From a virus (taxonomy: Duplodnaviria > Caudoviricetes): a stretch of 64,000 bases of DNA. Positions 6,900-64,000 of this stretch are shown here, piece after piece; position 1 is the stretch's first letter; each line of letters starts with the position of its first letter. Where the stretch lies: the IMG/VR virus record IMGVR_UViG_3300008954_000001; one strand, written 5' to 3'. The notes under the pieces were generated by a model. The model saw nothing but the letters and a program-made list of their open reading frames with translations, was not told the origin of the DNA and searched no databases. Both the position numbers and the translations under genes were made by a program.

Positions 6900-9317
6900 T
6901 CAGTCTACCCAAATGATCTGTGCCCCGTCAGGCAAGTCCGTAACGCTGGTGTAAGTGACATACTCGTTGCCAACCTTCACGGCATGACCAGCTTCGTAAC
7001 CGTGCTGGCCCATATCGGGCTGTACCTTGTTGCTATCCTCATCATTGGGGAGAGTGCTGTGGCCTTCGGCCTTCTCTTTGAGTTCAGAGTCTTCAGCAGC
7101 CTGTTTAGGCGGCGTGGTGGTTCCGTTGAACTCGGTTGCCCCTGGATTGTAGCCAGAGTTGCCTTCGAGCTTAGGCTGCGCTTCGTTGCTCTCATCTTCA
7201 CCGGGAAGTTGTGAGCGGCCCATGCCTTCGCCTTCTTTGTCCTCGTCCTCGTCATCCTCCGCACCAAACATGACACGGCCTCGTTGAAGTTCGCCGTTAG
7301 CGATACGGGTAGTCAGACGGACACGGGAGGCTTTCTTCGGGTTCAAACCATCTTTGATGGCTTTCACGACTGGAGTTCCAAGCAGCCCCGAATCTTTTTC
7401 GGCTACGATGGCGGGATCACCGGATTCTTCATCCTCGGTATCATCGTCCTTGGCGGCGGCCTTCTTGCCTTCGTCTTCGTCGTCCTCGCCTTCCTTGCCT
7501 TCGCTCTTTTTCTTTTCGCAGTTTTCCTTCAAGGCGGGAGGCAGTTTTTCGCAACCAGCGGTCTTACCGTCCTCATCCTCATCTTCACCTTCTTTGTCGC
7601 CATCTTTCTTCTTGGCTTCGCAAGCCTCTTGCATGGCTTCATTAGGAAGGTTCTCACAACCAGCGGTCTTACCGTCTTCGTCGTCCTCGCCTTCCTTATC
7701 TCCATCCTTCTTTTTAGCTTCACAGGCTTCTTGCATCGCCTCATTGGGGAGGTTTTCGCATCCAGCGGCTTTAAGGATAGCCTCGGCTTGGGCGATCAGT
7801 TTGTTCGCCCACATTGATTTCAGGTGGGGGTTGTTGTTATCCGACAACCACCGCTCCACATCAGACCAAAGGGTCTCTGTGTCCTTGATGCGCTCCAAGG
7901 ATGCCCGAACATTACGGGGGAGGTCGTCGTAGCTCATGGCGTTGCCACCACTCGCCAGATACTTCTCAAGCACCTTCTCTTGCCGCTTCATAAGGCGAGC
8001 AGCCTTGATGTGCTTCGAGGGATCTTTGGCATTGGCCGCAAGCTCTTCGGGCATCTTGCTCAAAGGAACCTTCTTACCCTTTTCGTGCTTGGCCTCTTTC
8101 TCATCGGCCTCTTTCTCATCCTCTTTATCGGAGGCGGTCACAAGAGAAGCGGCTTCGGGGTAGAAACGGAGAAGAATACGGGCAAACCGACACCGGCCAC
8201 GCTTCGAGTGATCACGGAGGAACGAAGTGATCTTCTCATACTTGGCTGTGCGGCGTGTGTGCAGGTCGTAAGCAACTGATCCCGCTTCTTGGGAAATGTC
8301 TAAACAAGCCTGAAGTGCCAACTTCGCCGTCTTCACTCGGTAGCCATACATTCCGTGACCAGCAGCGATCTTGGTGGATGCCTTCTTGGTCGAAGTCAAA
8401 CTAACTTTCCACTTCGAGGTGCCTCCGCCGAGCGACTCCGCTTTGGTCTTGACACCATCCTTCTCGATTTGCTTGGCGAACGCCTTGGCGTCTTTCTCTG
8501 CTTGGATACCGTTCGGCTCACTATAAAACGTGACTGAGCCATTCCCGTTAGCGGCGGCAATAATGAGGCTGACATCACTCTTTGGGCGAGACTTCTTGAT
8601 GGCTGCATCAATCGTAGCCCCAAGCTCATCGTTCTTTACCATTCGCTTGGTGGATGCCACCTTGGGTCCGATGTCCTCCATCGCAGCACAAAGGATGCGA
8701 GCAGACAGGGAGTTGGAACGCTTGGCATGGAGGTCAAGGAACGCAAACGTGGCCCTGTCCTTCGCATAAATCGTTCGAGCGATCTTATTAGCGACCTTTT
8801 GAACCTTACGAACCGAAGCCAAAACATCCCTTTGGGTCTGTTTCGTGTAGCCGTACAGTCCCCCAGAAGGGCGTTTCTTTACTGTTTTCAGGGCGGTAGC
8901 CATCTTGGAGAGGGACAACTCGTCCTCTTTCTCCAAAGACTTCAATACGTCTTCTAAGTTCATCATTTGTCGTTCCTCATGGTAATCAACTTCCCCATAA
9001 TCGGGCTGAGTCCTTAAAGGTGTGACCTGTAGAGGCTCACCTTCAAGTGTCTTATAGAAGGAGGATTGAAGTTCGGCGTTCGCAAGAGCCTCAAAATCAG
9101 CCCCACCATCCCGATCTTCATCCCATTTCTTCTTGTGTTTCGGTCTACGGCGACCCTTCGCCACATCCCTCACACGGCTGTCCTCTTTCATGGGGCCAGC
9201 GTTCGGTGTATTTTCAATGTGATCTCGCATGATCTCATTACGGGTCTTGGGCGTGTCTCGCCTGATCTTCATCTTGTCCTTTTGAGACAAGGGCTTCTTT
9301 TTCCTACGTCTACCCAT
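6900..9317 (-). CDS. Charged repeat-containing protein, putative internal head or polyprotein-like
   Basis: Likely start ATG 9317 (MGRRRKKK) overlapping the upstream stop; duplicated GLYGY/GMYGY domain, tandem AGCExLP repeats, many KxA sites. Confidence 0.65.
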   Translation of the reverse strand: MGRRRKKKPLSQKDKMKIRRDTPKTRNEIMRDHIENTPNAGPMKEDSRVRDVAKGRRRPKHKKKWDEDRDGGADFEALANAELQSSFYKTLEGEPLQVTPLRTQPDYGEVDYHEERQMMNLEDVLKSLEKEDELSLSKMATALKTVKKRPSGGLYGYTKQTQRDVLASVRKVQKVANKIARTIYAKDRATFAFLDLHAKRSNSLSARILCAAMEDIGPKVASTKRMVKNDELGATIDAAIKKSRPKSDVSLIIAAANGNGSVTFYSEPNGIQAEKDAKAFAKQIEKDGVKTKAESLGGGTSKWKVSLTSTKKASTKIAAGHGMYGYRVKTAKLALQACLDISQEAGSVAYDLHTRRTAKYEKITSFLRDHSKRGRCRFARILLRFYPEAASLVTASDKEDEKEADEKEAKHEKGKKVPLSKMPEELAANAKDPSKHIKAARLMKRQEKVLEKYLASGGNAMSYDDLPRNVRASLERIKDTETLWSDVERWLSDNNNPHLKSMWANKLIAQAEAILKAAGCENLPNEAMQEACEAKKKDGDKEGEDDEDGKTAGCENLPNEAMQEACEAKKKDGDKEGEDEDEDGKTAGCEKLPPALKENCEKKKSEGKEGEDDEDEGKKAAAKDDDTEDEESGDPAIVAEKDSGLLGTPVVKAIKDGLNPKKASRVRLTTRIANGELQRGRVMFGAEDDEDEDKEGEGMGRSQLPGEDESNEAQPKLEGNSGYNPGATEFNGTTTPPKQAAEDSELKEKAEGHSTLPNDEDSNKVQPDMGQHGYEAGHAVKVGNEYVTYTSVTDLPDGAQIIWVD
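7465..7770 (-). repeat. About 3 tandem in-frame repeats of ~102-105 bp (AGCENLPNEAMQEACEAKKKDGDKEGEDDEDGKT)
   Basis: CAACCAGCGGTCTTACCGTC recurs near 7552 and 7657, with a variant near 7760; copies differ at synonymous sites. Confidence 0.85.
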
Positions 9318-9906
9318 GATGCCCCCCAAACCAAATGGCTTGTAATTCCTCACCTGCGGTGCGGGTCGGTGTTTTCATAGAAGCCATGACTTGCCTTCCT
9401 TCAACTGAAACCTCCAAAGAGACAACTAAAGCGGGCCGCCGAACAATAAAGTCGCCCCAATCTTCACCCCATTTGGAGTAAAAATCGTCCTCATGCACTA
9501 TACGCACGGTTTTACTTGGGTTCGGGATGTTGGGGTCGGCAACATGGACATACAGGCCATCTTTCCGTTGTTCCACATCAAAGACCAAACTGGCGTGTGA
9601 CCAAGGCCGATTTTCGGGGTTCCAAGCAATCAACACAGGAAGCCCCCGATCTGTACACCTCTTTAATTGAGCGACAGTGGAGGGGGCCGTAAGGGTGCCT
9701 CTGCACCCAAAATACTGGATAGTTGCCAAGGCTTCTTCCCAACGAGCACCTTTTTTCGGTTCTGCGCCAAGGATTTTGTTTACATGGTCCTCGGTCAGTT
9801 CTGTTTTCCCAAGAGCCTTCAAAGCCATCAAAACAGACGTAGCTACGCAAGTGTACTGCGTTCTCTGGCGTACAGGGTCTACATTTGCTTTGGCTTTTTT
9901 GTGCAT
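9310..9906 (-). CDS. C39-family cysteine peptidase-like protein
   Basis: QRTQYTC (Q...C), WSHASL (His) and VADPN (Asp) match the papain-like C39 arrangement. Confidence 0.7.
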   Translation of the reverse strand: MHKKAKANVDPVRQRTQYTCVATSVLMALKALGKTELTEDHVNKILGAEPKKGARWEEALATIQYFGCRGTLTAPSTVAQLKRCTDRGLPVLIAWNPENRPWSHASLVFDVEQRKDGLYVHVADPNIPNPSKTVRIVHEDDFYSKWGEDWGDFIVRRPALVVSLEVSVEGRQVMASMKTPTRTAGEELQAIWFGGHHG

Positions 9907-51838: not shown

Positions 51839-52380
51839 TTGTTGGTCCTCTCTGGCTCACACCAAAAGACCCTTTGTGGTCCAGACGGGTTTGGGGTCAA
51901 GGGATACATTTGGCAGAATCTCGATAGCTGCCCCAACTCGTTACAGAATACGGTGGCTGTCTTACGGCTGTCTTGGTAGCCCCATTTGAGCGTCCAAACA
52001 TGCCCGGACGGAGGCGTAGGGCAATAGTTGTCCATGCACCGTGCTTCTGACGGGTTCCATTCGTAGATCATGCGGCCATCTGGACACTCTTGCTTTGGTT
52101 CTGATGCAACAGCCTCATCTTGTTTTCCGGGCCGCACTTTCCTACCACCCTCACAGACGTGGCCGTCCAGTTGGGGTTCCCCGCCGCTTTCTCGGCATTC
52201 TTGCTCCAAACATTCGAGCCAGCCTTTTGCCCCTTCGATAAGACCCCGCTGCTGGCATCTTTCCCAATTGGTGTTCGCATCTACTTTAGGGGCTTCTGGT
52301 GTGTCATCAGGACACCCCATTAGGGCGAATAGACAAACAGCAAGTGCTATCCTTCGTAGGTTCATCCTTCGGCAAACCAT
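51835..52380 (-). CDS. Cys-rich putative lipoprotein
   Basis: MNLRRIALAVCLFALMGC signal/lipobox. Confidence 0.55.
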   Translation of the reverse strand: MVCRRMNLRRIALAVCLFALMGCPDDTPEAPKVDANTNWERCQQRGLIEGAKGWLECLEQECRESGGEPQLDGHVCEGGRKVRPGKQDEAVASEPKQECPDGRMIYEWNPSEARCMDNYCPTPPSGHVWTLKWGYQDSRKTATVFCNELGQLSRFCQMYPLTPNPSGPQRVFWCEPERTNK

Positions 52381-53255
52381 TGTACGAGGGTTTCCAAGTT
52401 CTTGCGGTCAAGGCCCGTGAGGGAGGTCTTTTCCAGATGCCAAGATCGTTTCACGTCCACTCTCCACACACCCGGCGTTCCTTTGGGGAGTGTTTCTACC
52501 CGCAAGTTGCGGCCTGTTTCCCAATAAGTGCTTTTCGGGAAAATGGGGTGGGTTGATTTCTCTATGGGTCGGCTACTGCCATCGTCTTCAGCACCTTCGC
52601 CGTGGACCGCAGGGTCGAGAGTAACATAAGGCAGTTCGTCAATGTCCCGTTTGATCGGAAGGTCACGAGTGTTCCTGAAGTCACCCCACTCAACAGCAAC
52701 ATAGATGACCCCTGTGATGATGCCACCCTTGATCTTGATGTGCAGGGAATCGCCACCACCCCAATCATTCCATACCCAAGGGGCACCAATGTATCGGTCT
52801 ACATCCTTTCTTGCGGCATCATAAAAAATGTCCAAAACATTCTCATCAGTTTCGTAATCCTCATGTTTGCGACCTTCGAGCAGGGCGTGAAGTATCTCAT
52901 CCGAGTATTGACTCAAACCACCCATCTTCTTGACGAAGGTGCTGAACTGAGGGCCTTTCAGAGCTTTGAAGGGAATGTCCTTGATCCTATCAGCAGGTAT
53001 TTCGGCCAAAAGGCTCGGTGTATCGAACAACAGCTTCAAGGACTCCTTTGGAGGAGCCTCGGCTAAGACTTTGCTCGGAGGGACAACCACAGACACAGTG
53101 GCCTCAACTACAATGCCCTCAGGGACCACCGTGTAGCCCCCGACCTTGGGTTCACCTACAAGGTTCCCTGATCTCAACCCCTCTTTAACAGCTTCCGCTA
53201 AAGGGCTGGCTACACGCTTGGAGAACCATACGGCTTGGAGTTGTCTTGGGTTCAT
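52362..53255 (-). CDS. Leader-B protein (MNPRQLQAVWFSKRVA)
   Basis: Start ATG 53255 overlaps the upstream TGA. Confidence 0.65.
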   Translation of the reverse strand: MNPRQLQAVWFSKRVASPLAEAVKEGLRSGNLVGEPKVGGYTVVPEGIVVEATVSVVVPPSKVLAEAPPKESLKLLFDTPSLLAEIPADRIKDIPFKALKGPQFSTFVKKMGGLSQYSDEILHALLEGRKHEDYETDENVLDIFYDAARKDVDRYIGAPWVWNDWGGGDSLHIKIKGGIITGVIYVAVEWGDFRNTRDLPIKRDIDELPYVTLDPAVHGEGAEDDGSSRPIEKSTHPIFPKSTYWETGRNLRVETLPKGTPGVWRVDVKRSWHLEKTSLTGLDRKNLETLVQWFAEG

Positions 53256-53629
53256 ACCAAACTCTCCCAAAGCCTGAGTAGCTTGCTACCCTCGGCCTTG
53301 ATGCGTGGCTTTGGTTTCCACTTGGGATCGTGAGTCACATCCCACCTCATTTCGCCCAAGTTTCCGAGTAACTTGTACATCTTGAACATCTCATTGACGA
53401 ACCCAAACCATGCCTCACTATCAACACGGGGAGCATCGTAGTAACGATCTGCCCAGTCATCAATCGTTTCTCTCAGAGCCAGCCAGTCATCTTCAAATCC
53501 GTCGTACAAAGGCGAAGTGCCCTCCGCTAACTGCTTGAGGAGTTTCTCCATTTTCTGATAGTTTACGGGAGGTGGAATTCGGGCGGTCTTACCGAACCAT
53601 GTAGTTTCGAGTTGTCTCGTGTTCATCAT
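53252..53629 (-). CDS. Leader-B protein (MNTRQLETTWFGKTA)
   Basis: Shared leader, operonic overlap. Confidence 0.65.
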   Translation of the reverse strand: MMNTRQLETTWFGKTARIPPPVNYQKMEKLLKQLAEGTSPLYDGFEDDWLALRETIDDWADRYYDAPRVDSEAWFGFVNEMFKMYKLLGNLGEMRWDVTHDPKWKPKPRIKAEGSKLLRLWESLV

Positions 53630-53955
53630 CTCACCACCATGTAAGCAATCGCTGCACCTACAATCAGAGCAGCAATATGGGTTACGACCGCATACAAGAA
53701 AGACATTGAAGCTGAAGGCTTGTCCTTTTCAGCCTCACTCTCGTCCTTTTCGTGATCCAAGAGGGCCGTGCGGTGCTTTTGTTCCAGCTTCGCCAATTGA
53801 AGGCCAAGTACCTTGATCTGTTTTTCTAAAGCCTCAATGCGCTCTTTGTAGTAGCTGGACTTATGAACACCGCAGTAACGATTCCCGTATTCGGGCTTGG
53901 CGGCATGGTCGCATTGTTCATGCTCACAGTCGTAGTGCTGGCAGGTGTCGCTCAT
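53626..53955 (-). CDS. Coiled-coil protein with a C-terminal TM helix
   Basis: Cys/His N-terminus, heptad repeats, hydrophobic tail. Confidence 0.55.
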   Translation of the reverse strand: MSDTCQHYDCEHEQCDHAAKPEYGNRYCGVHKSSYYKERIEALEKQIKVLGLQLAKLEQKHRTALLDHEKDESEAEKDKPSASMSFLYAVVTHIAALIVGAAIAYMVVR

Positions 53956-53956
53956 T

Positions 53957-54424
53957 TCATGCCTGCTTCCAGCCGTTTCGGGCTAACCAATCGATTAGGT
54001 CATCGGCGTAGGTTTCATCTTCGGCAGGGTTGAAGTTCCCCTTATCTCCCTCACCCCTTCGCAAAGGCATGATGTCTTGGACCTTCACACGAACGACCAG
54101 TTTGGCTCCGAAAACCCCGCCCTTAGAGGCCGTAATGCTCGGTTCCTTGAACTTCGCTTGTCCAATGGGCTTCATTGTGGGGGCGACCATCTTGGGCCAA
54201 AAGCTCCCAACCGTTCGATAGGCTTCTTCAAGCCCCATCTCAGCCATACCCCCATGGCTCTTGACGGTTAGGTCTGCCAAAAAAGTAAGGAAGAGGTCGC
54301 TTGAATTATCTCCCACAGAGATGTGGTTGATCCCAACCCGCTTGTTCGTCCAAGCGGGAGCAGCAGCCTTACTATGACCAGCTTGGTTCATAAACCATTG
54401 AGCTTGTAGTTGTCGGGTGTTCAC
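53957..54424 (-). CDS. Leader-B protein (MNTRQLQAQWFMNQAGHSKAA)
   Basis: Shared leader. Confidence 0.65.
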   Translation of the reverse strand: MNTRQLQAQWFMNQAGHSKAAAPAWTNKRVGINHISVGDNSSDLFLTFLADLTVKSHGGMAEMGLEEAYRTVGSFWPKMVAPTMKPIGQAKFKEPSITASKGGVFGAKLVVRVKVQDIMPLRRGEGDKGNFNPAEDETYADDLIDWLARNGWKQA

Positions 54425-54447
54425 AGGGGGCCTCCATCCGGGATCGT

Positions 54448-54687
54448 CTACTCTCCCCGTTCCATAGGCGAGTTACCGTTCTTAGTGAGATTCGCCAGCG
54501 TGAGGCCCATATGTTCGCCCCACCCTTCGCAGATTTCTGCGGTGCTTACCTCGATTTCATCGCCAGGTTCCCAACCCAACTCAGCCATCAATTCGAGGGA
54601 CAGCATAATGTACTGTTCCCCGTTCTCATCTTCTTCAACCTTAGCTGTGTGTACACACTCAGTCGGAACACAGAATGTCATCGTCAT
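54448..54687 (-). CDS. AbrB/MazE-like small DNA-binding protein
   Basis: KVEEDENGEQYIMLSLELMAELGWEPGDEI. Confidence 0.6.
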   Translation of the reverse strand: MTMTFCVPTECVHTAKVEEDENGEQYIMLSLELMAELGWEPGDEIEVSTAEICEGWGEHMGLTLANLTKNGNSPMERGE

Positions 54688-54955
54688 CTCCTTGCCACTC
54701 GTCGTTTGTTTGCTCTCTTCCGTTGGGGTTATTCTTTATTGTTAGTCCACCCTGCCATTTAGACTGAAAGTATCCATCAAAGGCTTCCCATAGGAGGTTT
54801 TTGAGGCTTTCAGAGGAGGGGGCATCATGTGTTTCGCTATCCTCGAAGACCAATTGGCGATCAGCGAGGTCATCGTCTTCATCAGGAAGGATCAATAACC
54901 ATCCGTTTTGGACTCTTTCGATAATCACAGTCATGGCGTGTCCTGTTCGTGGCAC
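54659..54955 (-). CDS. Hypothetical protein
   Basis: IERVQNGWLL pattern. Confidence 0.5.
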   Translation of the reverse strand: MPRTGHAMTVIIERVQNGWLLILPDEDDDLADRQLVFEDSETHDAPSSESLKNLLWEAFDGYFQSKWQGGLTIKNNPNGREQTNDEWQGDDDDILCSD

Positions 54956-55386
54956 GATTCACATAGCGTTTTTATCCACGCTGTATTGCGAGCTTTGCCA
55001 AGGTTCCCACAGCGTTCACAGGTGTGGTCGGACATGGCTTCAGCCATACGGACCATACCCTCGATGTAGTGGTCGCCGCCGTGGTAGTAGAAACGAAGCC
55101 CACCGAACTTCTCTTTGACCTGTGTGGCTTCTACTTGAGCGAGGGGAGCGTAGTTCTCGTCCTTCTCGTTGTACTTGCGGTTGTGCTCGTACTTACCCTC
55201 TGCGTTGTGCCAATCCAGATGGTGCTGGATGTTGGCGCATAGGGTATCAAGGATGGAGTACCAGCCATCTCCACACTCCATGCCCCAACACATAGCGGTT
55301 TGGGTCATGGGCAGATTGACTTGACGGAAGATTCTCGGATGCGCTTTCAGCAGCTTGGTTTCGAGTTCAGCTTTCATAGTTGCCAC
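54931..55386 (-). CDS. Conserved phage protein
   Basis: CGDGWY...QVKEKFGGLRFY...CERCG. Confidence 0.65.
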   Translation of the reverse strand: MATMKAELETKLLKAHPRIFRQVNLPMTQTAMCWGMECGDGWYSILDTLCANIQHHLDWHNAEGKYEHNRKYNEKDENYAPLAQVEATQVKEKFGGLRFYYHGGDHYIEGMVRMAEAMSDHTCERCGNLGKARNTAWIKTLCESCHEQDTP

Positions 55387-55581
55387 CTCCCTCAGTAGAG
55401 GGAGGATAGGCTAACTATCTCTACGCCTTTTAGTTACTCGTTTGCGTATCGGACGGAGGGTGGCACGACGGAGTGAGTGTGCGATTTGGTCAATAGAATC
55501 AAGGAAGATTTTGCCGATGGCTTGGATGAGGACAACGGAGATGATCAGTACAGCTATGAGGACTTCAAGGCCACCCACCTA

Positions 55582-55902
55582 CTACCTCTCGCTCCACCCG
55601 TATCGGCTCGGATCGCTTGGGTTGCGGGGAATTTTCTTTACCACCCCGTCATCAAACTCCATGTCGTGATCTTCATAATCTTGGAACCAAACCCTCTTGC
55701 GAAACATCCCCCGTGCAAACTCTTCCATCGACTTTCTATCGGGAAATGGCCCGTAGTAGTCGATCAGGCGGTCGTAGTCGTAGCCCGTTTCTTCGCCATG
55801 TACCAAATAGTATTCATTGGGCCGACCCTTCCAACCCTTGGCATATTCGTTATTGCTTGCGGTCTTACCAAACCATGCTGCTTGTAGTTGCTTTGCGTTC
55901 AT
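55582..55902 (-). CDS. Leader-B protein (MNAKQLQAAWFGKTA)
   Basis: Shared leader, starts 1 nt after the upstream stop. Confidence 0.65.
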   Translation of the reverse strand: MNAKQLQAAWFGKTASNNEYAKGWKGRPNEYYLVHGEETGYDYDRLIDYYGPFPDRKSMEEFARGMFRKRVWFQDYEDHDMEFDDGVVKKIPRNPSDPSRYGWSER

Positions 55903-55903
55903 C

Positions 55904-57589
55904 CTAATACTCGCTTGGGAAGAGGATTGTGGTCACAGATCGATCCCATTCAGTGATGATCCAGATATCGCCCTCACTGGTCGGGTAAACACCCATGATG
56001 CGGTCATCCCCGCTCTTTACAGCAGCATCGTTCATGCGCTTGTCTTTGCTGATCCCCCAGTCGCCCCGTATGTATTTGCTCAGGGCCGCCTTGATCTCAT
56101 CACCAAACCCATCATTTGTACGGGTTTTGTGGTCTACCCCACGAGTCTGTACGAGTCGGCCAAGGGAGAATCGGCCAGCGGTCTTGGTGGAGGCCAGAGA
56201 CATCTGATTGTAGGTGGCTTGATCCTCGTAACGAATCTCGGCTTTCCCTTTCTGGAGTCCATTCCACATCGGTCCAAGTAGACCTCGGATTTTAGGCTGC
56301 TCCCAAAGCTCCTCTCTGAGCCGCCCCCCTTCTGGAGTCCAACCCGTGATGCTTGAGCGATACTTCCGCATAAAGTCTTTCTCGGTGTACCGCTGTGGCT
56401 TGTTACCTTGGGTAACGACCATGTAAGTGAACTCGCCAGCATATGTGGCGGCCCGTCTCCCTGTTAGGTTGCCACCAACGCCACCAACGCTCTTCCCTCG
56501 CAGGGATTTGATTAGGTCGGCAGCCGATGCGTTTTTGACCTTCTTTGGGGGCCGTAAGGAATCGGCAACTTGAATGATTTGGGAGTCCATCTTGCCTCCA
56601 CGAACCTTGCTACGAAGGGTCTCAAGGAGCTTTTCCGCACTCCCCTTCATGGCATCTTCCTCTCCAACGAGAAGCCAATCAAAAAGGCGAGGTGTCTTAT
56701 TCGTACCCCAAGGGTCGGATCGCACGTCATGCCCACTGTCGGTTTCTAAACCAGCGTAAGCAACGAGTTTGGTTCCACCCGCCTGTTTCAAATGGGGGAG
56801 GATCTTGGAACGAAGCTCAGGGTTCTCATGGGCTAAGTGGATCAATTTGGTTCTGTTTGAGGTCATTGTAGTCTCCGTAGCTCTTTTCTTAAGTTTGGAC
56901 CGAGTAGAATTGAGCATGTAGTCCTTAGTGAACTCCTCACAGAATTTCTTGACGTCTCGATCCCCATACCGTTTTTCCAGCACATGCCTTACACGCCCGC
57001 CGGTGACATCATCAAGATCCTCTAAGGCAAACTCATCAAGATCCTCACCGGGACAGGTGTACTCGAAGGCGTGGGTGATGAAATCGTCCACATCGACCTG
57101 CTCTTCCTCATACCCCGTTTCGCTCTCGCCCTCGTAACCATAGAAATTCATGAGTAGGGTCGGAGATAGGGGTCGATCCGCCGTGATCTTCTTCCCCCCT
57201 AATTGCAGCGTTTGGCCCGCCTTTAAGGACATCTCCAAGGACACCATAGCAATCCACCTATCGTCATCCTTATCTCGGTCATCCACATCGAATCGGTCTA
57301 CTTTCCAGCCTTGACGCTTGAACTCGTTCGCTATCTTTTTGAGGTTTTTGCGAGTCTCTTTTTCAAACGCCTTGAAACTGTACTCCTCCTCATCCTCTGG
57401 ACATTCGCCTGAAGGCATTTCCATGTAGTCGCTTGGGTCGGGGCGGTCATCGTAGTCATCGTAGTCATAGTGACCGTAAGCCTGCTTGGAGATCGCCTTT
57501 GCTCGTTTGAGTAGGTCCAAGATATCGCTGCGATGCTCTGGCTGCGTGTGCGCCAAACGGATCAGCTTGGTTCGTAGGTCGTGGCTCAT
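55904..57589 (-). CDS. Multi-domain leader-A protein with two leader copies
   Basis: LRTKLIRLAHTQPEHR at the N-terminus, NRTKLIHLAHENPELR internal; C-terminal IWIITEWDRSVTTILFPSEY domain. Confidence 0.7.
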   Translation of the reverse strand: MSHDLRTKLIRLAHTQPEHRSDILDLLKRAKAISKQAYGHYDYDDYDDRPDPSDYMEMPSGECPEDEEEYSFKAFEKETRKNLKKIANEFKRQGWKVDRFDVDDRDKDDDRWIAMVSLEMSLKAGQTLQLGGKKITADRPLSPTLLMNFYGYEGESETGYEEEQVDVDDFITHAFEYTCPGEDLDEFALEDLDDVTGGRVRHVLEKRYGDRDVKKFCEEFTKDYMLNSTRSKLKKRATETTMTSNRTKLIHLAHENPELRSKILPHLKQAGGTKLVAYAGLETDSGHDVRSDPWGTNKTPRLFDWLLVGEEDAMKGSAEKLLETLRSKVRGGKMDSQIIQVADSLRPPKKVKNASAADLIKSLRGKSVGGVGGNLTGRRAATYAGEFTYMVVTQGNKPQRYTEKDFMRKYRSSITGWTPEGGRLREELWEQPKIRGLLGPMWNGLQKGKAEIRYEDQATYNQMSLASTKTAGRFSLGRLVQTRGVDHKTRTNDGFGDEIKAALSKYIRGDWGISKDKRMNDAAVKSGDDRIMGVYPTSEGDIWIITEWDRSVTTILFPSEY

Positions 57590-57851
57590 GTATATCTCTC
57601 CCATCGCAACGGCGGTCTACTTTGTCCGTGCGATAGGATGATTACCGTTTGCCAACCAACCATAAGAAAAGCGATTGGAGGCCCCTCCATACTCCGTGGA
57701 TCATAAGACAGACCCGTAACACCGTAACGAGGGTGAAAAAGAGTAGATAGGCCATGCAGTCTTTGAAGAAGTCCCACATGCTCTCTATGGGTGATAGCGG
57801 GGGTAAAGCCTCTGTACCTCAAACCCATAGTGCGATGGGCGAAAGCCTGTC

Positions 57852-58109
57852 TTAATCTACGATCCGCCGCCCAGACCTTGTGGGCTGACGCTTTTTGTCT
57901 GTTTTGGGGACTCTCCGTAATGCTTCCATCATCGTGTATTCAGCTACACCAATGAGATCATAGCGGTCATCTTGTGGGAGGTCGGGTAGGAGGCCATGCC
58001 GAAACGCATGGGCGGAGGCTTTGAATAGATAACACCCTAATCCAAAAGCGTATTTTAGGTGCTGCCAGTAGGACTCACCAACGGATGCTGGATGGGTCCA
58101 CAGCGGCAT
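57852..58109 (-). CDS. DUF6356-like small protein
   Basis: HPASVGESYWQHL...HGLLP; ATG 58109 overlaps the upstream TAA. Confidence 0.55.
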   Translation of the reverse strand: MPLWTHPASVGESYWQHLKYAFGLGCYLFKASAHAFRHGLLPDLPQDDRYDLIGVAEYTMMEALRRVPKTDKKRQPTRSGRRIVD

Positions 58110-58870
58110 TACGAACTGGCCCACCCGTAGAACATCCAGCCAAGGGACTTGCCTAAGACAACTTGGTAGCGAGTTCCTACTACTTGCCAAGTCGGGAGTC
58201 GGGTAGCTTCACTGAGCTTTTCCACATATCCCAGCCTCTTTACTTGATAAATTGGAGATTTGGTCCCTACTCCCCATCGGGTATCGGCAAGGAGAGCCTT
58301 TGCTAATAGCAGGGCTTCTTTACGAGTGGGTGCTTTATCCGACCCGTGTAACGACCCAACAAGAAAGTAAGACACATCTTCTTTGATGAATCCTGTTTTG
58401 GGAACGCCACCCTCTCGGATCTTCTCGCTTTTCCGACTATCAATATCGACTTGGACGGTAGCCCCTTGGCGACTACGGCCTTTCGCAGCGATAGCTTCTT
58501 TCCCCTTTGCCTGTGCTTCGTTCCAACTTCGAGCTTGGACTTTGACTGCATATTCCTTTTTTCCGACCACTTTGGACTCAGCAATTTGGATAGCGAAGGC
58601 TGGCCCCCACTTATCGTTATTGTCCATATCCTTATCAATGAAATCGTTGGCTTGCGCTCGTGTCATTAGGGTTCGGCTTCGGATCTTGAAGCCGTCCTTT
58701 TCAGCGATTGTTCCCGTGTATCCTCGGTTGCCGTTTTCATACCGAGCTTCTTCTACACATTCGGCAAAAGCCCGGTGTGGGTCAGTTTGGCGAGAACCGT
58801 CCACAAAGGTTGTGCCACCAGCGGTCTTTTTCATCAGGTGTCGTGAGGCGACTCGTTGTGCCAAACTCAT
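58109..58870 (-). CDS. Leader protein (MSLAQRVASRHLMKKTA|G)
   Basis: Basic leader, then a GYTGTIAEK domain. Confidence 0.65.
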   Translation of the reverse strand: MSLAQRVASRHLMKKTAGGTTFVDGSRQTDPHRAFAECVEEARYENGNRGYTGTIAEKDGFKIRSRTLMTRAQANDFIDKDMDNNDKWGPAFAIQIAESKVVGKKEYAVKVQARSWNEAQAKGKEAIAAKGRSRQGATVQVDIDSRKSEKIREGGVPKTGFIKEDVSYFLVGSLHGSDKAPTRKEALLLAKALLADTRWGVGTKSPIYQVKRLGYVEKLSEATRLPTWQVVGTRYQVVLGKSLGWMFYGWASS

Positions 58871-59679
58871 TTCAACTCCTTGAAGCCCATGTTGTCCACG
58901 AACCAGAGCTTTCGACCTTGCATGACAATATCGCCCACACTCATAGAGGTATGCCCCGATCCCGACTTAGAAATCAGGCCACGGGCTTCCCCACGAGGCG
59001 ACCACATTTCGCCTTGCATCATCGTAAAAATGCTATCGAGGTTGCGCTCACCAATCTCACCAATCAGAACATGGGTTTCGGCAAGGGTCTTATAGGTGGG
59101 AACATGGGGGACGTTGCCCATTCCAGCATCTTCACCGCCCCGCTCAACCAACCATTCGTAGCCCATGCCCATGTCACGGCCCATACGAGCCTTGTAATAC
59201 CAAATCTTTGATCCCGATCCCGCATACGCTGGATTGCCCGTCGCTTCGGCAGCATCACTGAGCTTGCGGTATTGAGAGGCCCCCATCTTTTGAAGCACTC
59301 GTTCAACAGAAACGGAGGCTTGCTTCTTTTCTAACACTCGCTCAACAGAAGCCATACGCAGATACCATCCTGTGTGGGATTCAAAGGTTTCAACCAACAT
59401 ATCGAAGAACAAGCCTTTGAATTCTTTGACCTTCTTCTTCCCTCGTTTTGAGACATTGAAAAAGGTCATGTCGTAAAGGTCGGCACCCGTCAACTCGATC
59501 TCAACGTAGTTACCTCTGGAGCGTTGCTTGTTGGGCCACTTGAAGCCCACACCACGCCCACGAAGATCAATGAACTGCCGAACACCAAGCATCGCAGTCA
59601 GGCGGCCAGCGCCACCCATCTGTTTGAGAATGGTCTTGCCGACTGAGGCTTGCTTTGATGTTTGAGGGCTTGTGTTCAT
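58867..59679 (-). CDS. Two-domain protein punctuated by KQA|S and RMA|S sites
   Basis: TILKQMGG domain; tandem SVERVLEKKQA / SVERVLQKMGA linker; TSMSVGDIV domain. Confidence 0.65.
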   Translation of the reverse strand: MNTSPQTSKQASVGKTILKQMGGAGRLTAMLGVRQFIDLRGRGVGFKWPNKQRSRGNYVEIELTGADLYDMTFFNVSKRGKKKVKEFKGLFFDMLVETFESHTGWYLRMASVERVLEKKQASVSVERVLQKMGASQYRKLSDAAEATGNPAYAGSGSKIWYYKARMGRDMGMGYEWLVERGGEDAGMGNVPHVPTYKTLAETHVLIGEIGERNLDSIFTMMQGEMWSPRGEARGLISKSGSGHTSMSVGDIVMQGRKLWFVDNMGFKELK

Positions 59680-59680
59680 T

Positions 59681-60361
59681 TTAGTGTCCGTACATTGGGT
59701 GGGTTTTGCGTTCAGGTTTGCCGCCCCAAGGAGTGAGATAGATAGAACTGTTTAGGCTTACGCCGTTACTCTGATCGACCTTCTTCTTATACACCTTGTT
59801 ATCCCACCAACTGTCCTTGGCAGGCATTACAAGTAGCTCTTGTCCCCGATCACCAACGACTTTGTGGTTGATACGCCTGACTTCGACCATCTTGCTACCA
59901 ACGAGCTTGGTGACTTGAGCAAAGGTTACGTTCGTCTGGTCATAGCCCCAACTCCCACTAAGAACGTCTCCAACCTTTAGTGAGTGTTGGAAAGCGGCTC
60001 TCTCGTCACGCTGCTGCTTCTTTTCATCCAAACGCTTTTTCACGTTTAGGATAAGGGTCTTGTAAGCCTTGTTTCTTTCAGCTTCGCTTCTGTAAGACTT
60101 GAAGCCTTTGACACGCCTCGCTCGCTTGTTCGATGCCCAAGCCAAGTAATACACGCCCCGCACTTCATCGGGCCAAGCCCAAATGCGGAGATTCTTTAGA
60201 GGTTCCGTTAACTTACCGCCCGCTTGATCTGTCCAGCGTTGCACGGATGAAATATCAACTTCTTTATTGTAGCCCCACGCCTCTTTCAACAAAGGACGCA
60301 GCTTGCCCCTCAATTCAGGCTTCTCGTAGGCAAGTCGAATGATTTGATCCCGCAAACTCAT
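59681..60361 (-). CDS. Leader-A protein (MSLRDQIIRLAYEKPELRGKLRPLLKEA)
   Basis: Shared leader, then an SWGYDQTNV domain. Confidence 0.7.
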   Translation of the reverse strand: MSLRDQIIRLAYEKPELRGKLRPLLKEAWGYNKEVDISSVQRWTDQAGGKLTEPLKNLRIWAWPDEVRGVYYLAWASNKRARRVKGFKSYRSEAERNKAYKTLILNVKKRLDEKKQQRDERAAFQHSLKVGDVLSGSWGYDQTNVTFAQVTKLVGSKMVEVRRINHKVVGDRGQELLVMPAKDSWWDNKVYKKKVDQSNGVSLNSSIYLTPWGGKPERKTHPMYGH

Positions 60362-60362
60362 A

Positions 60363-60557
60363 CTATTTCCCTGCCGGTGTGTTCTTTATTTGCTCAATCA
60401 AATGAGCACGAAAGGTAGGGTTCTGCCGAGAGAGGGCCGATAACTTGGCTCGGATATGCTGCTTTTGCTTTTTTGGGTCACCACTAATATCGATTTTCAA
60501 GTGGGTTCTCAGGGTTGGCGAGCCATACACCCGCTGGACGATTTCATTTAGGTTCAT
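60363..60557 (-). CDS. Small protein made of two degenerate leader-A-like units
   Basis: VQRVYGSPTLRTHL and IRAKLSALSRQNPTFRAHLIEQIK. Confidence 0.5.
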   Translation of the reverse strand: MNLNEIVQRVYGSPTLRTHLKIDISGDPKKQKQHIRAKLSALSRQNPTFRAHLIEQIKNTPAGK

Positions 60558-60632
60558 AGTAATACTCCATGGACAGTTCTTGGCCGCCCTTCACAAGCGA
60601 ACGGGATCTACTCTGGCCGTTCAATCGAGAGG

Positions 60633-61295
60633 TTATCGAGCCTTACTTCGACAGTTGCAGCGTTCCACAACATGCCTCACGCTGGCGGAACGCCCGCCGG
60701 GGCTGTAGATGCCCCGTTCTCTGGCCCATGTTTTTAGTTCTGCCTCGAACATCTTGAACTGAGGGCCATGATTCATATGCCGTAGGTGAGCAAGTTCGTG
60801 GATCATGGTGGACATGATGGCACTGTATTTACGGAGCTTCATGGGGTTCCGCTTTTGGCGGACGTTCAGGGCGATAATCCTTCGCCCTCGATTAAACCCC
60901 AATGATCCCTCGGCCACCGATTCCTTCAGTGTCTGAAAGGACAGCTTGAACTCTCGAAGGATGGGCTGAACGTCTCGTTGGGCTTTCGCCAAGATCGCCG
61001 CAACCTCTTCCTTACCTTCCAAGTCGTACACGGAATAGCCATCTTCAACTGTTCTGCGCCACTCTTTCTTGGTTTGGACCCGTTCGGCTTTCTGACCCAA
61101 CTTCTTTTTGGCCCACTTGACCCACTTAGGTAGGTACTTGGTGCGAACGTGGCTGCCTTCGGGAGCATCTAAACCCCACTTGATAAGGAGCTTGTTGCCT
61201 CGAATGGATGCGTTGGAACGCCGATTGTCGGTAGAGACTTGTGTGACCTTCAGGCCATCGATCTCGGAATCTACATAAGGACCAATAGCTGCCAT
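60633..61295 (-). CDS. WLM/SprT-like zinc metalloprotease
   Basis: GFNRG...STMIHELAHLRHMNHGPQF (HExxH plus a third His); ATG 61295 overlaps the upstream TGA. Confidence 0.7.
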   Translation of the reverse strand: MAAIGPYVDSEIDGLKVTQVSTDNRRSNASIRGNKLLIKWGLDAPEGSHVRTKYLPKWVKWAKKKLGQKAERVQTKKEWRRTVEDGYSVYDLEGKEEVAAILAKAQRDVQPILREFKLSFQTLKESVAEGSLGFNRGRRIIALNVRQKRNPMKLRKYSAIMSTMIHELAHLRHMNHGPQFKMFEAELKTWARERGIYSPGGRSASVRHVVERCNCRSKAR

Positions 61296-62941
61296 CAGGA
61301 GCCTCCCAATCGAACAACATCTTCTTGCCAAGCCTTGATCTCTGGGATCGCCTCACGCACTGATTTCTGCAAACCACTCATCGTTCGAGGCTTGAGTTCC
61401 CATTTGCTCATGACTTGAAAATCATGCTTCATCTCTCGAACGGAAACGATGTGGTGTACCCGTGCCGAAGGGCCGGGGACCGATTGAGGGGAGAACTGAC
61501 GAGAGGCTACATAAACAACTAAAGAGTCCTCTTCCGTACCTTGCCACTTCCATGACTTGAGTCCAGGCACACGAGAAGCTGCTTTGGTATCAAACTTGAA
61601 CCCTAATCGCTTGAGGTCTCGGTCGAAGCTCTCAACGATCTTGCGATACTCAGCCATCTCATCCTGTGTTTCAGGGTCTTCGGGCTGATAACCCTTCGAC
61701 CAATCAAGAGAGGCCAATAAGGGCAGCAGATGGGGTCGTAGCTCTGGATTACTGTTGGCCAAGTAAATGGTTTCAGCACGGAGGCGAGAGGCTTGTTTGA
61801 ATTCGTTGACGATAGGATTGGATTCTGGATTCAACCAAGTCTTAGTGAGGTTTTTCCATTTCTTATAGGAGTCCATCATGGTTTTGACTGCCCCATCATC
61901 CTTCCTTTTTTGTTTCTTTTTGAAATGTTCGTCGTACTTATCCATCTTATTTTTGATTTTCTCTGCGGAGTAGCCTTTACCTTCAAGGGACTTTTCATAG
62001 TCTGCACGATGGTCTGCCTGTTCTTGCTTTTGCCTCTCTTGGGTAGACATGCTTTCCGTTTTCTTATCTTTGTCGTACTTGGCCATCTCTTTCTCAAGCC
62101 CACGACCAATGGCTGCTTTGTCATCCCCGTGCTCTTCTTGGAGCTTTTTGAGAGCAGCGTCTTCGTGTTTCTTGCGGGCTTCGGCATCTTGCTTCTTATG
62201 GCCCGAAGTCAGTTCTTCACGATCTTGCTTCGCCTTGTCCTCTTTGTCCCGTTTCTCTTGCTGGTCGTAGTTCCGCATAGCTTCGGAATACTCGGCATCC
62301 ATTTCGGCTTTGGATTCTTCGGATAAGTTGCCTTCCTCGTCTCTTTCACTGTCGTACTTCTTGTTCAACGAAGTAACTGTAGCCTTACCGTGCTGCTCAC
62401 GGGTTTTCTTTTTGGCTTGGCCCACTTCAGTCTTTTTGGGATGGTAATCTTCCCCACCTTGACCCGATCCTGGTTGAGGCTTTGCCTTTTCTGCGTCGGC
62501 TTCCTCTTGCTTTGCAGCGTCCTCTTGAGGCTTTGCGTTGGGGTCTAAGAAGTCCTTTTCGGTTTTGGTTGTGTCCGGGTGGTCAGCCTTGTACTTCTCG
62601 AACATCTTCTTGGCCGCTTCGGGCGTAGCTCCGAGATCATTACGGCTCTTGGACTTGGGTTTCGAGTCCCCTTCGGCCTTGGGCTTATCCTCTTTCTTGG
62701 TGTCTCCCTTGGGTTTGTCCCCCCAAGGCCCCTTGATAACTTTCCCGCTATCGCTGTCTCCCCCACCGCTCGGAGGCTTTGCACCACCACCCGTGTCAGG
62801 AGAAGGGGCAGGTTTAGACGCTGGCTCTTGTTTGAGAGCGGGGGCCGCACTGCCTCGACCTTCCTTCAACAAAGGGAGCAACAGAGGTCTGAGTTCTGGT
62901 TTGGCGTGGGCCAACCGAATTAGGTGGTTTCGTAGGTTCAT
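61295..62941 (-). CDS. Highly charged leader-A protein with two leader copies
   Basis: MNLRNHLIRLAHAKPELRPLLLPLLK; internal LRAETIYLANSNPELRPHLLPLL. Confidence 0.7.
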   Translation of the reverse strand: MNLRNHLIRLAHAKPELRPLLLPLLKEGRGSAAPALKQEPASKPAPSPDTGGGAKPPSGGGDSDSGKVIKGPWGDKPKGDTKKEDKPKAEGDSKPKSKSRNDLGATPEAAKKMFEKYKADHPDTTKTEKDFLDPNAKPQEDAAKQEEADAEKAKPQPGSGQGGEDYHPKKTEVGQAKKKTREQHGKATVTSLNKKYDSERDEEGNLSEESKAEMDAEYSEAMRNYDQQEKRDKEDKAKQDREELTSGHKKQDAEARKKHEDAALKKLQEEHGDDKAAIGRGLEKEMAKYDKDKKTESMSTQERQKQEQADHRADYEKSLEGKGYSAEKIKNKMDKYDEHFKKKQKRKDDGAVKTMMDSYKKWKNLTKTWLNPESNPIVNEFKQASRLRAETIYLANSNPELRPHLLPLLASLDWSKGYQPEDPETQDEMAEYRKIVESFDRDLKRLGFKFDTKAASRVPGLKSWKWQGTEEDSLVVYVASRQFSPQSVPGPSARVHHIVSVREMKHDFQVMSKWELKPRTMSGLQKSVREAIPEIKAWQEDVVRLGGS

Positions 62942-64000
62942 TTATCCCTCGCAAGAATCTTCCGAATAGCTGAAGCCCCGCCGTCAGAACTCACATCAAT
63001 GGCATCCCTGCCGACCTTCTTCGCTATGGCAAGAATCGAAACTACTACGGCATCGTATGGTTTGCGGGCGGTTTTACAGAAGTCCCACTCCCCTTTTTTC
63101 TGTGTCAGATGAAAGGTCTCGTGGCCCTCTTCGCCTTCGCCGTTAAGCCAGATTTCTTTAGAGTTGAGAACAGGTCTTGATCCCGCCTTCCCCGACCCAT
63201 CAACAATAGTGATGCCTTTCCCTTTGGCGGCTCGGATAATCTTCTTCGCAGCAGCGACAATCGTTGACCACTCCTCTGGGAGGAAGTCTCTCGACTGTTC
63301 CCAATAGTGGGTGTAGCCAGCCTTCTTGATGATGGGAAGCAAGTGTGGGCGAAGCTCAGGGTGTGCGTAAGCAAGCCGAATGGTTTGAGGTAGGAGTGAG
63401 GCCCATGGCCCTTGGATGACGTTCCCACCATCCTCTTCATCGTCATCTCCCATGGCTCCGAGAGCCGCTTCGGGATCAAAGTTAGGCTTTTTCGATTGCT
63501 CGATGGCCTTCTTTTTGTCCTCTGGGGACATTTTCGATTTCCTGATGGCCTCTTGGTAATCTTTGACGAGTTCAGCCTTGGACTTCTTCCTTTCAGGTTT
63601 GTCCTTTTTCTTGTCTTTAGGCTTATCCTTGCCCTCTTCCTTATCTTTCTTGGGGCCGTCTTTCTGTTTCTTCTCGGCTTCGGCCTTCTCTTTTTCGGTC
63701 TCTTTTTTCTTCTTCCGATACTTCTTTACTTCGGTCTCAGCCTTCGCTTCGGCCTCTTGTAGGGCCAGTATTTCGTCAGCTTCTTCTTTAGAGAGTTCGA
63801 TGTGTTTCCACCCTTTGGGTAGTTCGGCTCCAAACTCATCGTCGTGCCAAACAAATTCGACATCGTTGGGGTCCATATCTCCCCAGCCCGCCTTTTCCAT
63901 TAGCTTTTTCTTGGCGGCGTTGCTTTTGATGGTCGCCTTTTCTTTTTTCTCTTCGGCTCCGAACAGGGCTTTGCCGATATCTTTTAGTAGCTTCGCTATG
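62938..64000 (-). CDS. Leader-A-containing protein, 5' end beyond the window
   Basis: Frame stays open to the right edge; QTIRLAYAHPELRPHLLPIIKKA|GYTHYW...FCKTARKPYD. Confidence 0.7.
   Translation of the reverse strand, partial: IAKLLKDIGKALFGAEEKKEKATIKSNAAKKKLMEKAGWGDMDPNDVEFVWHDDEFGAELPKGWKHIELSKEEADEILALQEAEAKAETEVKKYRKKKKETEKEKAEAEKKQKDGPKKDKEEGKDKPKDKKKDKPERKKSKAELVKDYQEAIRKSKMSPEDKKKAIEQSKKPNFDPEAALGAMGDDDEEDGGNVIQGPWASLLPQTIRLAYAHPELRPHLLPIIKKAGYTHYWEQSRDFLPEEWSTIVAAAKKIIRAAKGKGITIVDGSGKAGSRPVLNSKEIWLNGEGEEGHETFHLTQKKGEWDFCKTARKPYDAVVVSILAIAKKVGRDAIDVSSDGGASAIRKILARDK

What the first reader, a model, noticed from the sequence alone, without database searches (positions are those of the whole stretch)
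55904..64000. Shared leader A (LRxxLIRLAHxxPELRPxLLPLLKxA) on unrelated domains: candidate capsid-targeting and processing system
Seen in sequence: the ~26-aa motif occurs at least six times in four otherwise unrelated ORFs (55904 x2, 59681, 61295 x2, 62938), with a degenerate form in 60363. Most copies end in a [KR]xA (once KEG) site and are followed by a different domain, e.g. KKA|GYTHYW, KQA|GGT, KEA|WG. Other KxA sites also mark domain junctions: KTA|GRFSLG in 55904 and KQA|SV in 58867. Several of these domains I recall as stand-alone small phage or plasmid proteins, some beginning MGYTHYW (unverified). Established: T4 internal proteins use a cleaved capsid-targeting leader and are injected, and IPI* blocks GmrSD; phiKZ head proteins are processed at short motifs. 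Inference: a library of tagged cargo proteins is packaged, cleaved after KxA and ejected, possibly as anti-defence effectors.
Basis: partly seen in the sequence, partly recalled or inferred. Interest (0 to 1): 0.8.

Follow-up and report, generated by a model that had tools for sequence, protein, structure and literature searches.

The report
Clip-off address tag in megaphage proteins
A clade of uncultured ~440-485 kb marine phages attaches the same 29-residue two-helix peptide, bracketed by Lys-x-Ala sites that look like protease cut sites, to many unrelated small proteins, most likely to dock them in the assembling head and then clip them free, though packaging has not been shown.

Summary
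The motif (tag A, about LRxxLIRLAHxxPELRxxLLPLLKxA) occurs six times in four ORFs of the window. Two more copies lie just past the window edge in the same gene. None occurs elsewhere in the 64 kb.

It is not a simple leader. In 150 related proteins it is N-terminal 118 times, internal 175 times and C-terminal 55 times. Some proteins are made of tags and linkers alone.

The strongest new result concerns K-x-A:
- The GYTHYW domain normally starts at residue 2 of stand-alone proteins. When it is internal, [KR]-x-A precedes it exactly in 32 of 37 cases.
- K-x-A is enriched about 20-fold directly before tags.
- K-x-A is the most over-represented x-spaced pair in the acidic scaffold-like proteins of related phages.

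All ten tag-bearing viral contigs tested share one capsid-protein family.

Best reading (0.45): a position-independent docking tag that the head maturation protease excises at K-x-A. Main rival: a leader read by the clade's C39-like peptidase. Packaging, ejection and anti-defence roles remain untested.

The scan has noted analogous tags before, in this genome (RVAxRY) and in other huge phages.

The parts
57494..57580 (-). tag A copy 1 (N-terminus of the 566-aa protein), followed by KRAKA and ISKQA
   Evidence: profile hit 55.8 bits; coordinates
56774..56860 (-). tag A copy 2 (internal, residues 249-277 of the 566-aa protein), ends LKQA|GG
   Evidence: 60.2 bits
55907..56173 (-). C-terminal cargo domain of the 566-aa protein, beginning right after KTA|G
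   Evidence: 1297 mostly stand-alone ~92-aa homologs starting MKFELG.. at this boundary; model pLDDT 97, no known fold
55904..57604 (-). 566-aa multi-domain protein with two tags
58109..58870 (-). 253-aa protein starting with a different tag (MSLAQRVASRHL, the RVAxR[YWHF]L type) followed by KKTA|GG
   Evidence: sequence; tag type from earlier notes; the same tag type replaces tag A on homologs of the 92-aa cargo
58867..59679 (-). 270-aa protein: 11-residue leader ending KQA|S, then a phrog_9437 domain, then two short ERVL..K/MxA|S junction repeats
   Evidence: phrog_9437 profile positions 3-98 align to residues 13-109; this domain carries tag A in 2 other proteins
60272..60358 (-). tag A copy 3 (N-terminus of the 226-aa protein), ends LKEA|WG
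   Evidence: 60.6 bits
59681..60361 (-). 226-aa protein: tag plus phrog_37844 domain
   Evidence: ~190-aa stand-alone structural relatives align to residues 36-226; a tagged homolog exists in distant relative G001
60363..60557 (-). 64-aa ORF with two tag-like but non-significant repeats
   Evidence: 6.4 bits, E 0.57
60633..61295 (-). WLM/SprT-like zinc peptidase inside the cluster (HExxH)
   Evidence: PF08325 E 1.4e-14; public gene aa; no homolog in 5 other tag-bearing contigs
62852..62938 (-). tag A copy 4 (N-terminus of the 548-aa protein), ends LKEG
   Evidence: 51.3 bits
61700..61786 (-). tag A copy 5 (internal, residues 386-414), preceded by KQA|S
   Evidence: 52.5 bits
61295..62941 (-). 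548-aa protein: tag, ~350-aa charged low-complexity region, tag, C-terminal domain
63313..63399 (-). tag A copy 6, ends IKKA|GYTHYW
   Evidence: 56.4 bits; modelled as two helices running straight into the first strand of the domain
62941..63315 (-). GYTHYW cargo domain
   Evidence: 234 homologs; invariant G-Y-T-H-Y-W at the extreme N-terminus; AlphaFold DB relatives align from their residue 2
62938..64000 (-). 3' part of an 864-aa three-tag protein that continues beyond the window
   Evidence: full length read on L006 7410-10001
9310..9906 (-). C39_2-like cysteine peptidase, a candidate K-x-A/tag-reading protease (outside the finding's range)
   Evidence: PF13529 25 bits against a cut-off of 24; family present in 8 of 10 tag-bearing contigs

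Best explanation
Tag A is a mobile 29-residue basic amphipathic helix-kink-helix module. A clade of ~440-485 kb megaphages attaches it to the start, end or domain junctions of many unrelated small proteins. It is bracketed by Lys/Arg-x-Ala sites. I propose that it docks the tagged protein in the assembling prohead, perhaps on the acidic scaffold core, and that the head maturation protease then cuts after K-x-A. That cut excises the tag and separates polyproteins into free domains with native N-termini, which stay in the head. Shown here: the tag's modularity and spread; K-x-A exactly at domain boundaries; K-x-A enrichment in scaffold-like and protease proteins. Inferred: that K-x-A is cleaved; that the head protease does it; that the tag's partner is in the prohead. 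Not addressed: ejection and effector function.
For: (1) The profile search finds 3553 representative proteins (342 at E<=1e-10), with up to 6 tags each. Cargo domains are diverse (RelA_SpoT, pentapeptide, WGR and several DUFs). (2) K-x-A flanks the tag. [KR]xA occupies -3..-1 in 71 of 239 copies, against 1.2% background. It ends the tag at position 27 or 28 in 176 of 293 copies. In an unbiased a-x-b scan KxA is the top pair upstream of tags, at 20x. (3) GYTHYW starts at residue 2 in nearly all stand-alone homologs. When internal, it is preceded exactly by [KR]xA in 32 of 37 cases, with or without tag A, including 5-residue leaders MRKTA|G. In other phages the same boundary follows an L-x-E leader of the T4 type. 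(4) KTA|G in the 566-aa protein is the start of a family of 1297 homologs, mostly ~92 aa and stand-alone. Some members carry tag A-like or RVAxRY tags instead. (5) In related tag-bearing phages the acidic protein between the head maturation protease (phrog_18299) and the capsid protein has 13-40 KxA sites (z 4.0-9.2 against shuffles). The protease has z 2.0-4.1. Capsid protein, portal and terminase show none. KxA is the top a-x-b pair there (z 9.8) and is kept across different repeat units. (6) All 10 tag-bearing viral contigs tested share capsid family phrog_2522. In the complete 437-kb genome G009, 12 of 16 tags lie within 15 kb of the capsid gene and two tagged genes directly follow it. In G003 a tagged gene lies between portal and protease.
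Against: No virion data exist and no cultured phage carries the tag. Across seven genomes tag genes are mostly scattered; proximity to the capsid gene is only modest overall (Fisher p 0.024, driven by G009). The cluster in this window lies, by earlier unchecked notes, about 100 kb from the head module. Tag-only proteins (e.g. 63 aa, two tags) have no cargo to deliver. Five-residue MRKTA leaders show that K-x-A junctions exist without any docking tag. Scaffold enrichment partly reflects repeated low-complexity units (ExE and AxK are also enriched). A C39-like peptidase found in most relatives, and fused to K-x-A-segmented polyproteins, could be the protease instead. The head genes of this very phage could not be read here.
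Confidence: 0.45

Rival explanations
1. Tag A (and its sister tags) is a leader read by the clade's C39-like cysteine peptidase. This would resemble the way double-glycine leaders are read by C39 domains. The peptidase would cut after K-x-A in the cytoplasm to release or activate domains, with no capsid targeting.
For: The window encodes a C39_2-like peptidase next to an 817-aa K-x-A-rich protein (22 sites). The family is present in 8 of 10 tag-bearing contigs. Many long GYTHYW proteins are polyproteins with a C39 domain (N-terminal in the one checked) and K-x-A|G junctions. By my reading of the sequence, the tag's second helix places Leu at P4, P7 and P12 before the cut, as in double-glycine leaders.
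Against: The complete genome G009 has 16 tags and a K-x-A|S-repeat scaffold-like protein but no C39 match. The strong K-x-A enrichment in scaffold-like and head-protease proteins is not expected for a cytoplasmic leader peptidase. Cleavage motifs of known C39 enzymes have Gly at P2, and here P2 is variable. C-terminal tags do not fit a leader.
Confidence: 0.2
2. Tag A is a docking or co-assembly 'sticker' for some other shared partner. Candidates are another tag, a replication or compartment scaffold, a chaperonin or the ejection machinery. K-x-A would only mark linker ends.
For: Position independence, multi-copy and tandem arrangements, tag-only proteins and many tag-linker-tag proteins. Tandem tags score as LRV-type alpha-repeats in 1 of 97 proteins. 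The exposed hydrophobic face of the modelled hairpin needs a partner (inference).
Against: It does not explain why K-x-A sits exactly at the native N-terminus of cargo domains, or why K-x-A marks scaffold-like proteins. No candidate partner gene was found.
Confidence: 0.15
3. Tag A is a degron or adaptor signal for the phage-encoded Lon protease (or GroEL) that times the turnover of early proteins.
For: The window encodes Lon and GroEL. The tag is hydrophobic and basic, as many Lon degrons are (recalled, not tested).
Against: Lon was found in only 1 of 5 tag-bearing records. It is missing from the 92%-complete G008, which has 11 tags. A degron does not explain exact K-x-A domain junctions.
Confidence: 0.04
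4. The shared sequence is a DNA-level recombination linker or a recent duplication with no function in the protein.
For: Mosaic phage genes sometimes share boundary sequences (general knowledge).
Against: Nucleotide identity between copies is 0.43. Third-position identity at identical residues is 0.33, which is near random, while the protein motif is conserved across thousands of proteins.
Confidence: 0.01

Closest known systems
Phage T4 capsid targeting sequence (CTS) of IPI-III and Alt, removed by the gp21 prohead protease
   Same: A short shared peptide on unrelated proteins, ending in the cut motif that also riddles the scaffold core. The cut-off leaves a native N-terminus. In other uncultured phages the same GYTHYW cargo carries an L-x-E-ending leader of this type.
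   Different: 29 residues and two helices instead of ~10 residues. Found at N-termini, junctions and C-termini, in up to 6 copies. Bracketed on both sides by K-x-A rather than followed by (L/I)-x-E. No T4-type protease profile match in relatives, though that control was uninformative. Packaging is unproven.
phiKZ/SPN3US giant-phage head protein propeptides cut by the prohead protease (PMC10052503)
   Same: Many head and ejection proteins are trimmed at one short motif. Propeptides are cut several times and the protease cuts itself. Ser is preferred at P1', as after many K-x-A sites here.
   Different: Those propeptides are N-terminal, 20-254 residues long and not one shared module. The cut motif here is basic-x-Ala.
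Polyvalent proteins of phages and conjugative elements (Iyer et al. 2017, PMC5512222)
   Same: Strings of small domains, each also found alone, with peptidase domains proposed to process them and delivery with the DNA proposed. A zincin (WLM/SprT-like) gene lies in the cluster.
   Different: Here a defined tag and a defined junction tripeptide separate the modules. The proteins are shorter (226-864 aa). A search of that paper for 'linker', cleavage and helical terms found no such tag described.
Double-glycine leaders and C39 peptidase domains
   Same: An amphipathic helical leader before a small-residue cut site. A C39_2-like peptidase is encoded in the window and in 8 of 10 relatives.
   Different: The cut motif is K-x-A, not G-G/A/S. 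No ABC transporter was seen fused in these hits (the window's peptidase is a 198-aa stand-alone ORF). Tags also occur internally and at C-termini.
P22-type scaffolding protein C-terminal helix-turn-helix coat-binding domain and encapsulin cargo-loading peptides
   Same: A small basic helical hairpin or short peptide that works as a portable signal for loading cargo into an HK97-fold shell. This resemblance is from memory and from the model.
   Different: No sequence similarity was tested or claimed, and the partner here is unknown.

Membership tests
T4-type CTS / prohead-protease cargo system | Short peptide at the free N-terminus of unrelated proteins | tested here: not met
   Shared by unrelated proteins, but only 118 of 348 copies are N-terminal; 175 are internal and 55 C-terminal.
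T4-type CTS / prohead-protease cargo system | Leader ends in the (L/I)-x-E motif of the gp21-type protease | tested here: not met
   Ends in [KR]-x-A. L-x-E leaders occur on the same cargo only in other phages.
T4-type CTS / prohead-protease cargo system | The same cut motif is abundant in scaffold core and protease | tested here: met
   Tested for K-x-A in related phages, not in this phage: scaffold-like proteins z 4.0-9.2, protease z 2.0-4.1, capsid protein, portal and terminase none.
T4-type CTS / prohead-protease cargo system | Tag is sufficient to load proteins into proheads and is removed there | not testable with these tools
   Needs virion proteomics or a tag-reporter packaging assay.
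Polyvalent proteins (Iyer et al. 2017) | Single polypeptide combining several domains that are otherwise stand-alone in phages or plasmids | tested here: met
   566-aa and 864-aa proteins; GYTHYW, the 92-aa domain, phrog_37844 and phrog_9437 all exist alone.
Polyvalent proteins (Iyer et al. 2017) | Hallmark domains (LPDs, ParB-like, zincin MPTase, SNF2, methylase) in the same protein | tested here: inconclusive
   Only a weak structural match to an LPD29 cluster (TM 0.40). A DGHHRW motif was seen, but no ParB profile hit. The zincin is a separate gene.
Double-glycine leader / C39 peptidase | C39 peptidase encoded with the substrates | tested here: met
   PF13529 in window ORF 9310-9906; 8 of 10 relatives; absent from complete genome G009.
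Double-glycine leader / C39 peptidase | Cleavage after G-G (or G-A/G-S) | tested here: not met
   P2 is K, T, Q or E, and Gly is not preferred.
LRV / HEAT-like alpha-repeat | Profile match to the repeat family | tested here: not met
   PF01816 matches 1 of 97 tagged proteins, one with tandem tags. No hit on the window's proteins.

The most novel reading that the evidence does not exclude
These megaphages use a natural, position-independent capsid cargo-loading tag together with a new maturation code (cut after Lys/Arg-x-Ala). If so, the packaged and probably injected protein set of an uncultured ~450-kb phage can be read from sequence alone, and polyproteins are taken apart inside the head into dozens of free small effectors.
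Probability: 0.4. Interest if true: 0.85.

Novelty: new variant of a known kind. Interest (0 to 1): 0.7.

Why it matters
If the reading holds, it would extend the T4 and phiKZ idea of targeted, trimmed head cargo to a whole clade of uncultured megaphages, with a different tag architecture and a different cut motif. It would give a sequence rule (tag A and its sister tags plus K-x-A) for predicting which of their hundreds of unknown genes make virion-borne proteins. It would also offer a ready-made portable tag and protease-site pair for loading foreign proteins into phage capsids. The K-x-A junction rule alone already helps to split these phages' multi-domain ORFs into their true functional units.

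Tried and rejected
- **Own genome and head genes.** No genome is held for the window. The public contig cannot be searched as a record, so this phage's head genes could not be read.
- **Near-identical DNA.** None in phage or plasmid collections or IMG/VR.
- **Cultured phages.** None carries the tag. The apparent DSS3P8 match is only the GYTHYW domain with a probably mis-called start.
- **Locus search with the tag alignment.** A degenerate DNA pattern replaced it.
- **Tag self-association.** Complex prediction with two copies gave 'no answer' (score 0.02). This is not evidence either way.
- **WLM/SprT peptidase as the dedicated protease.** No homolog in 5 tag-bearing contigs.
- **Lon linkage.** Found in 1 of 5 records.
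- **Pfam profiles in relatives.** T4 gp21, HK97 protease, gp23 and HK97 capsid profiles gave no hits. PHROG profiles did find the head genes.
- **Cargo function.** No PDB or Swiss-Prot fold match for GYTHYW or the 92-aa domain. PDB sequence searches and the Atlas named-cluster search were empty.
- **DNA-level linker idea.** Rejected by saturated synonymous sites.
- **Promoter.** The bipartite promoter motif of the window has no copy in 49-64 kb.
Full report
**What is in the window.** The region is a run of minus-strand genes in a phage-like window that also encodes Lon, GroEL, an SNF2 helicase, CobS/vWA-like proteins, an endolysin and four tRNAs. A deeper 84-row profile gives the same answer. 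The 'degenerate' copy in ORF 60363 scores 6.4 bits (E 0.57), so it remains unproven. The exact protein of ORF 61295 is found on public marine metagenome contigs of up to 323 kb. On one of these the truncated last ORF is 864 aa and holds two more copies. The phage therefore has eight copies in four proteins of this cluster, and none in the 10 kb beyond. Third-codon identity between copies at identical residues is 0.33. The motif is thus maintained at the protein level.

**What the tag is.** A profile search of 1.84 billion representative proteins gives 3553 hits at E<=0.001 and 342 at E<=1e-10, with 2-6 copies per protein among the best 150. Of 348 copies, 118 are N-terminal, 175 internal and 55 C-terminal. 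Several proteins are nothing but tags and charged linkers, for example a 63-aa protein made of two tags. An AlphaFold model of tag plus GYTHYW domain (pLDDT 91.9) shows two helices (residues 7-17 and 19-32) that run straight into the first strand of the domain. It is therefore a portable helix-kink-helix module and not a classical leader. Cargo partners are diverse and mostly of unknown function: RelA_SpoT, pentapeptide repeats, WGR, DUF2958, DUF7007 and several PHROG families, including those of the window's own ORFs 59681 and 58867.

**Which phages have it.** No cultured phage record carries it. A degenerate DNA pattern finds 45 loci in IMG/VR, mostly on contigs of 50-485 kb. Ten of ten such contigs tested share one capsid-protein family, phrog_2522. 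They include a complete 437-kb genome with terminal repeats (G009) and a 92%-complete 485-kb one. Each record has 7-16 tags. G001 shares only 7 of 85 window proteins with this phage, so the tag spans a broad clade.

**K-x-A behaves as a processing site.** This is the main result, and four lines of evidence converge.
- *GYTHYW boundary.* The GYTHYW domain is invariant from its first Gly and starts at residue 2 in nearly all of the 120 listed stand-alone homologs and in AlphaFold DB relatives. Among longer proteins where it is internal, the three preceding residues are [KR]-x-A in 32 of 37 cases, x-x-A in 2 and L-x-E in 1. This holds with tag A, with other leaders, with the five-residue leader MRKTA, and inside polyproteins carrying C39-peptidase and intein domains. 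A domain that otherwise always has a free Gly N-terminus, and is always preceded by one tripeptide when fused, is hard to explain without cleavage.
- *Other cargo boundaries.* KTA|G in the 566-aa protein is the start of a family of 1297 homologs, mostly stand-alone ~92-aa proteins (MKFELG...). Some members instead carry an RVAxRY tag or a tag A-like leader, each followed by basic-x-Ala. The PHROG profiles of ORFs 58867 and 59681 extrapolate to starts just after KQA and KEA.
- *Tag flanks.* [KR]xA sits at -3..-1 before 30% of non-N-terminal tags, against 1.2% background. It ends the tag in 60% of copies, and Ser is the commonest next residue.
- *Head proteins of relatives.* The head modules run terminase, portal, long polyprotein, head maturation protease (phrog_18299), acidic scaffold-like protein, capsid protein. 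The scaffold-like proteins hold 13-40 K-x-A sites (z 4.0-9.2 against shuffles). The proteases have z 2.0-4.1. Capsid protein, portal and terminase show none. An unbiased scan of all a-x-b pairs puts KxA first in the scaffold-like proteins (z 9.8) and first upstream of tags (20-fold). The repeat units differ between phages (for example EKEA|KKA|D against SDKDA|SL) but keep K-x-A. This argues against a mere composition effect, although ExE and AxK are also enriched.

**Which protease.** The pattern in scaffold and protease mirrors T4 and SPN3US, where the prohead protease degrades both at its motif (PMC10052503). The head maturation protease is therefore my first candidate. A real rival is the C39_2-like peptidase, encoded in this window (9310-9906) and in 8 of 10 relatives. 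A C39 domain is also fused to K-x-A-segmented polyproteins. Against that rival, the complete genome G009 has tags and a K-x-A|S scaffold-like protein but no C39 match. The WLM/SprT zincin inside the cluster has no homolog in five tag-bearing contigs.

**Is the tag a capsid address?** The support is indirect. Tags are excised at what looks like the head protease's motif, which would place them in the prohead. Tagged genes sit inside or next to head modules in G001, G003, G008 and especially G009. In G009, 12 of 16 tags lie within 15 kb of the capsid gene and two tagged genes follow it directly. The same cargo carries T4-like L-x-E leaders in other phages, whose neighbouring genes share that leader. 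Three points weigh against. Overall proximity to the capsid gene is only modest (Fisher p 0.024). Tag-only proteins and MRKTA leaders do not fit a simple 'tag carries cargo' picture. Nothing shows packaging. I put this reading at 0.45.

**What is not supported.** No cargo domain could be linked to anti-defence or to any known fold. Ejection is untested. The resemblance to polyvalent proteins (PMC5512222) is architectural only.

**Relation to earlier notes of this scan.** The same genome was noted to carry another tag (RVAxRY) and K/R-x-Ala-rich head proteins, and a 'leader B' next door. Here I saw the RVAxR-type tag on ORF 58109 and on homologs of the 92-aa cargo. I confirmed the K-x-A scaffold pattern independently in five related phages. 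Similar shared tags have been reported by the scan in other huge phages.

**Limits.** The head module of this very phage was not readable. The scaffold and protease evidence comes from distant relatives. Gene calls in relatives are my own simple ORF calls. All statements about cleavage rest on comparative inference.

Noticed in passing
L006:7410-10001 (continuation of window ORF 62938->64000): The full 864-aa protein carries a DGHHRW motif (ParB-like nuclease signature by eye) between tags 1 and 2, but no Pfam ParB hit. Tags 1 and 2 are each followed by the same ~25-residue module F.SQ.ELDEY(L/M)K.HP.AD....H.V, which also follows tags in many unrelated hits.
   Followed up: partly
window 52362-55902: Neighbouring genes start with another shared leader (MN.RQLQA.WFGK.A). 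Three of the four have [KR]xA ending at residue 16-21.
   Followed up: partly
window 58867-59679: After the phrog_9437 domain the 270-aa protein has two tandem short repeats, SVERVLEKKQA|S and SVERVLQKMGA|S, which look like miniature junction tags.
   Followed up: no
window 61295-62941 and 62938-63999: A second short shared motif, G.VI.GPW (GKVIKGPWG and GNVIQGPWA), occurs in two tagged proteins, once directly before a tag.
   Followed up: no
L004:9591-16180: In an unrelated uncultured phage the GYTHYW protein and several neighbours share a different leader (M[RK][RK]T[LI]E.TEA..., with L-x-E-type endings). This is an analogous array under a T4-like code.
   Followed up: partly
GYTHYW domain, window 62941-63315: The same domain, always from residue 2, heads fungal proteins annotated as heterokaryon-incompatibility (HET) domain proteins in AlphaFold DB, so it may be a conflict-system domain shared across kingdoms.
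   Followed up: no
P0401, P0405, P0406: Phage polyproteins of ~1500 aa combine a C39 peptidase domain, an intein with a LAGLIDADG endonuclease, and K-x-A-separated segments including GYTHYW.
   Followed up: no
G001:149738-152974 and equivalents in G003, G004, G005: A ~1040-1400-aa protein with a polynucleotide-kinase-like N-terminus sits between portal and head protease in all these relatives. This echoes the enzyme-bearing polyprotein noted at that place in this genome.
   Followed up: no
window 57852-58106: An 85-aa DUF6356 gene (PF19883, E 2e-12) lies between two tagged genes.
   Followed up: no
window 1094-48612: The motif GGGGGCT-N15-CGGTA occurs 12 times (0.34 expected) but has no copy in 49-64 kb, so the tag cluster seems not to use that promoter.
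   Followed up: partly
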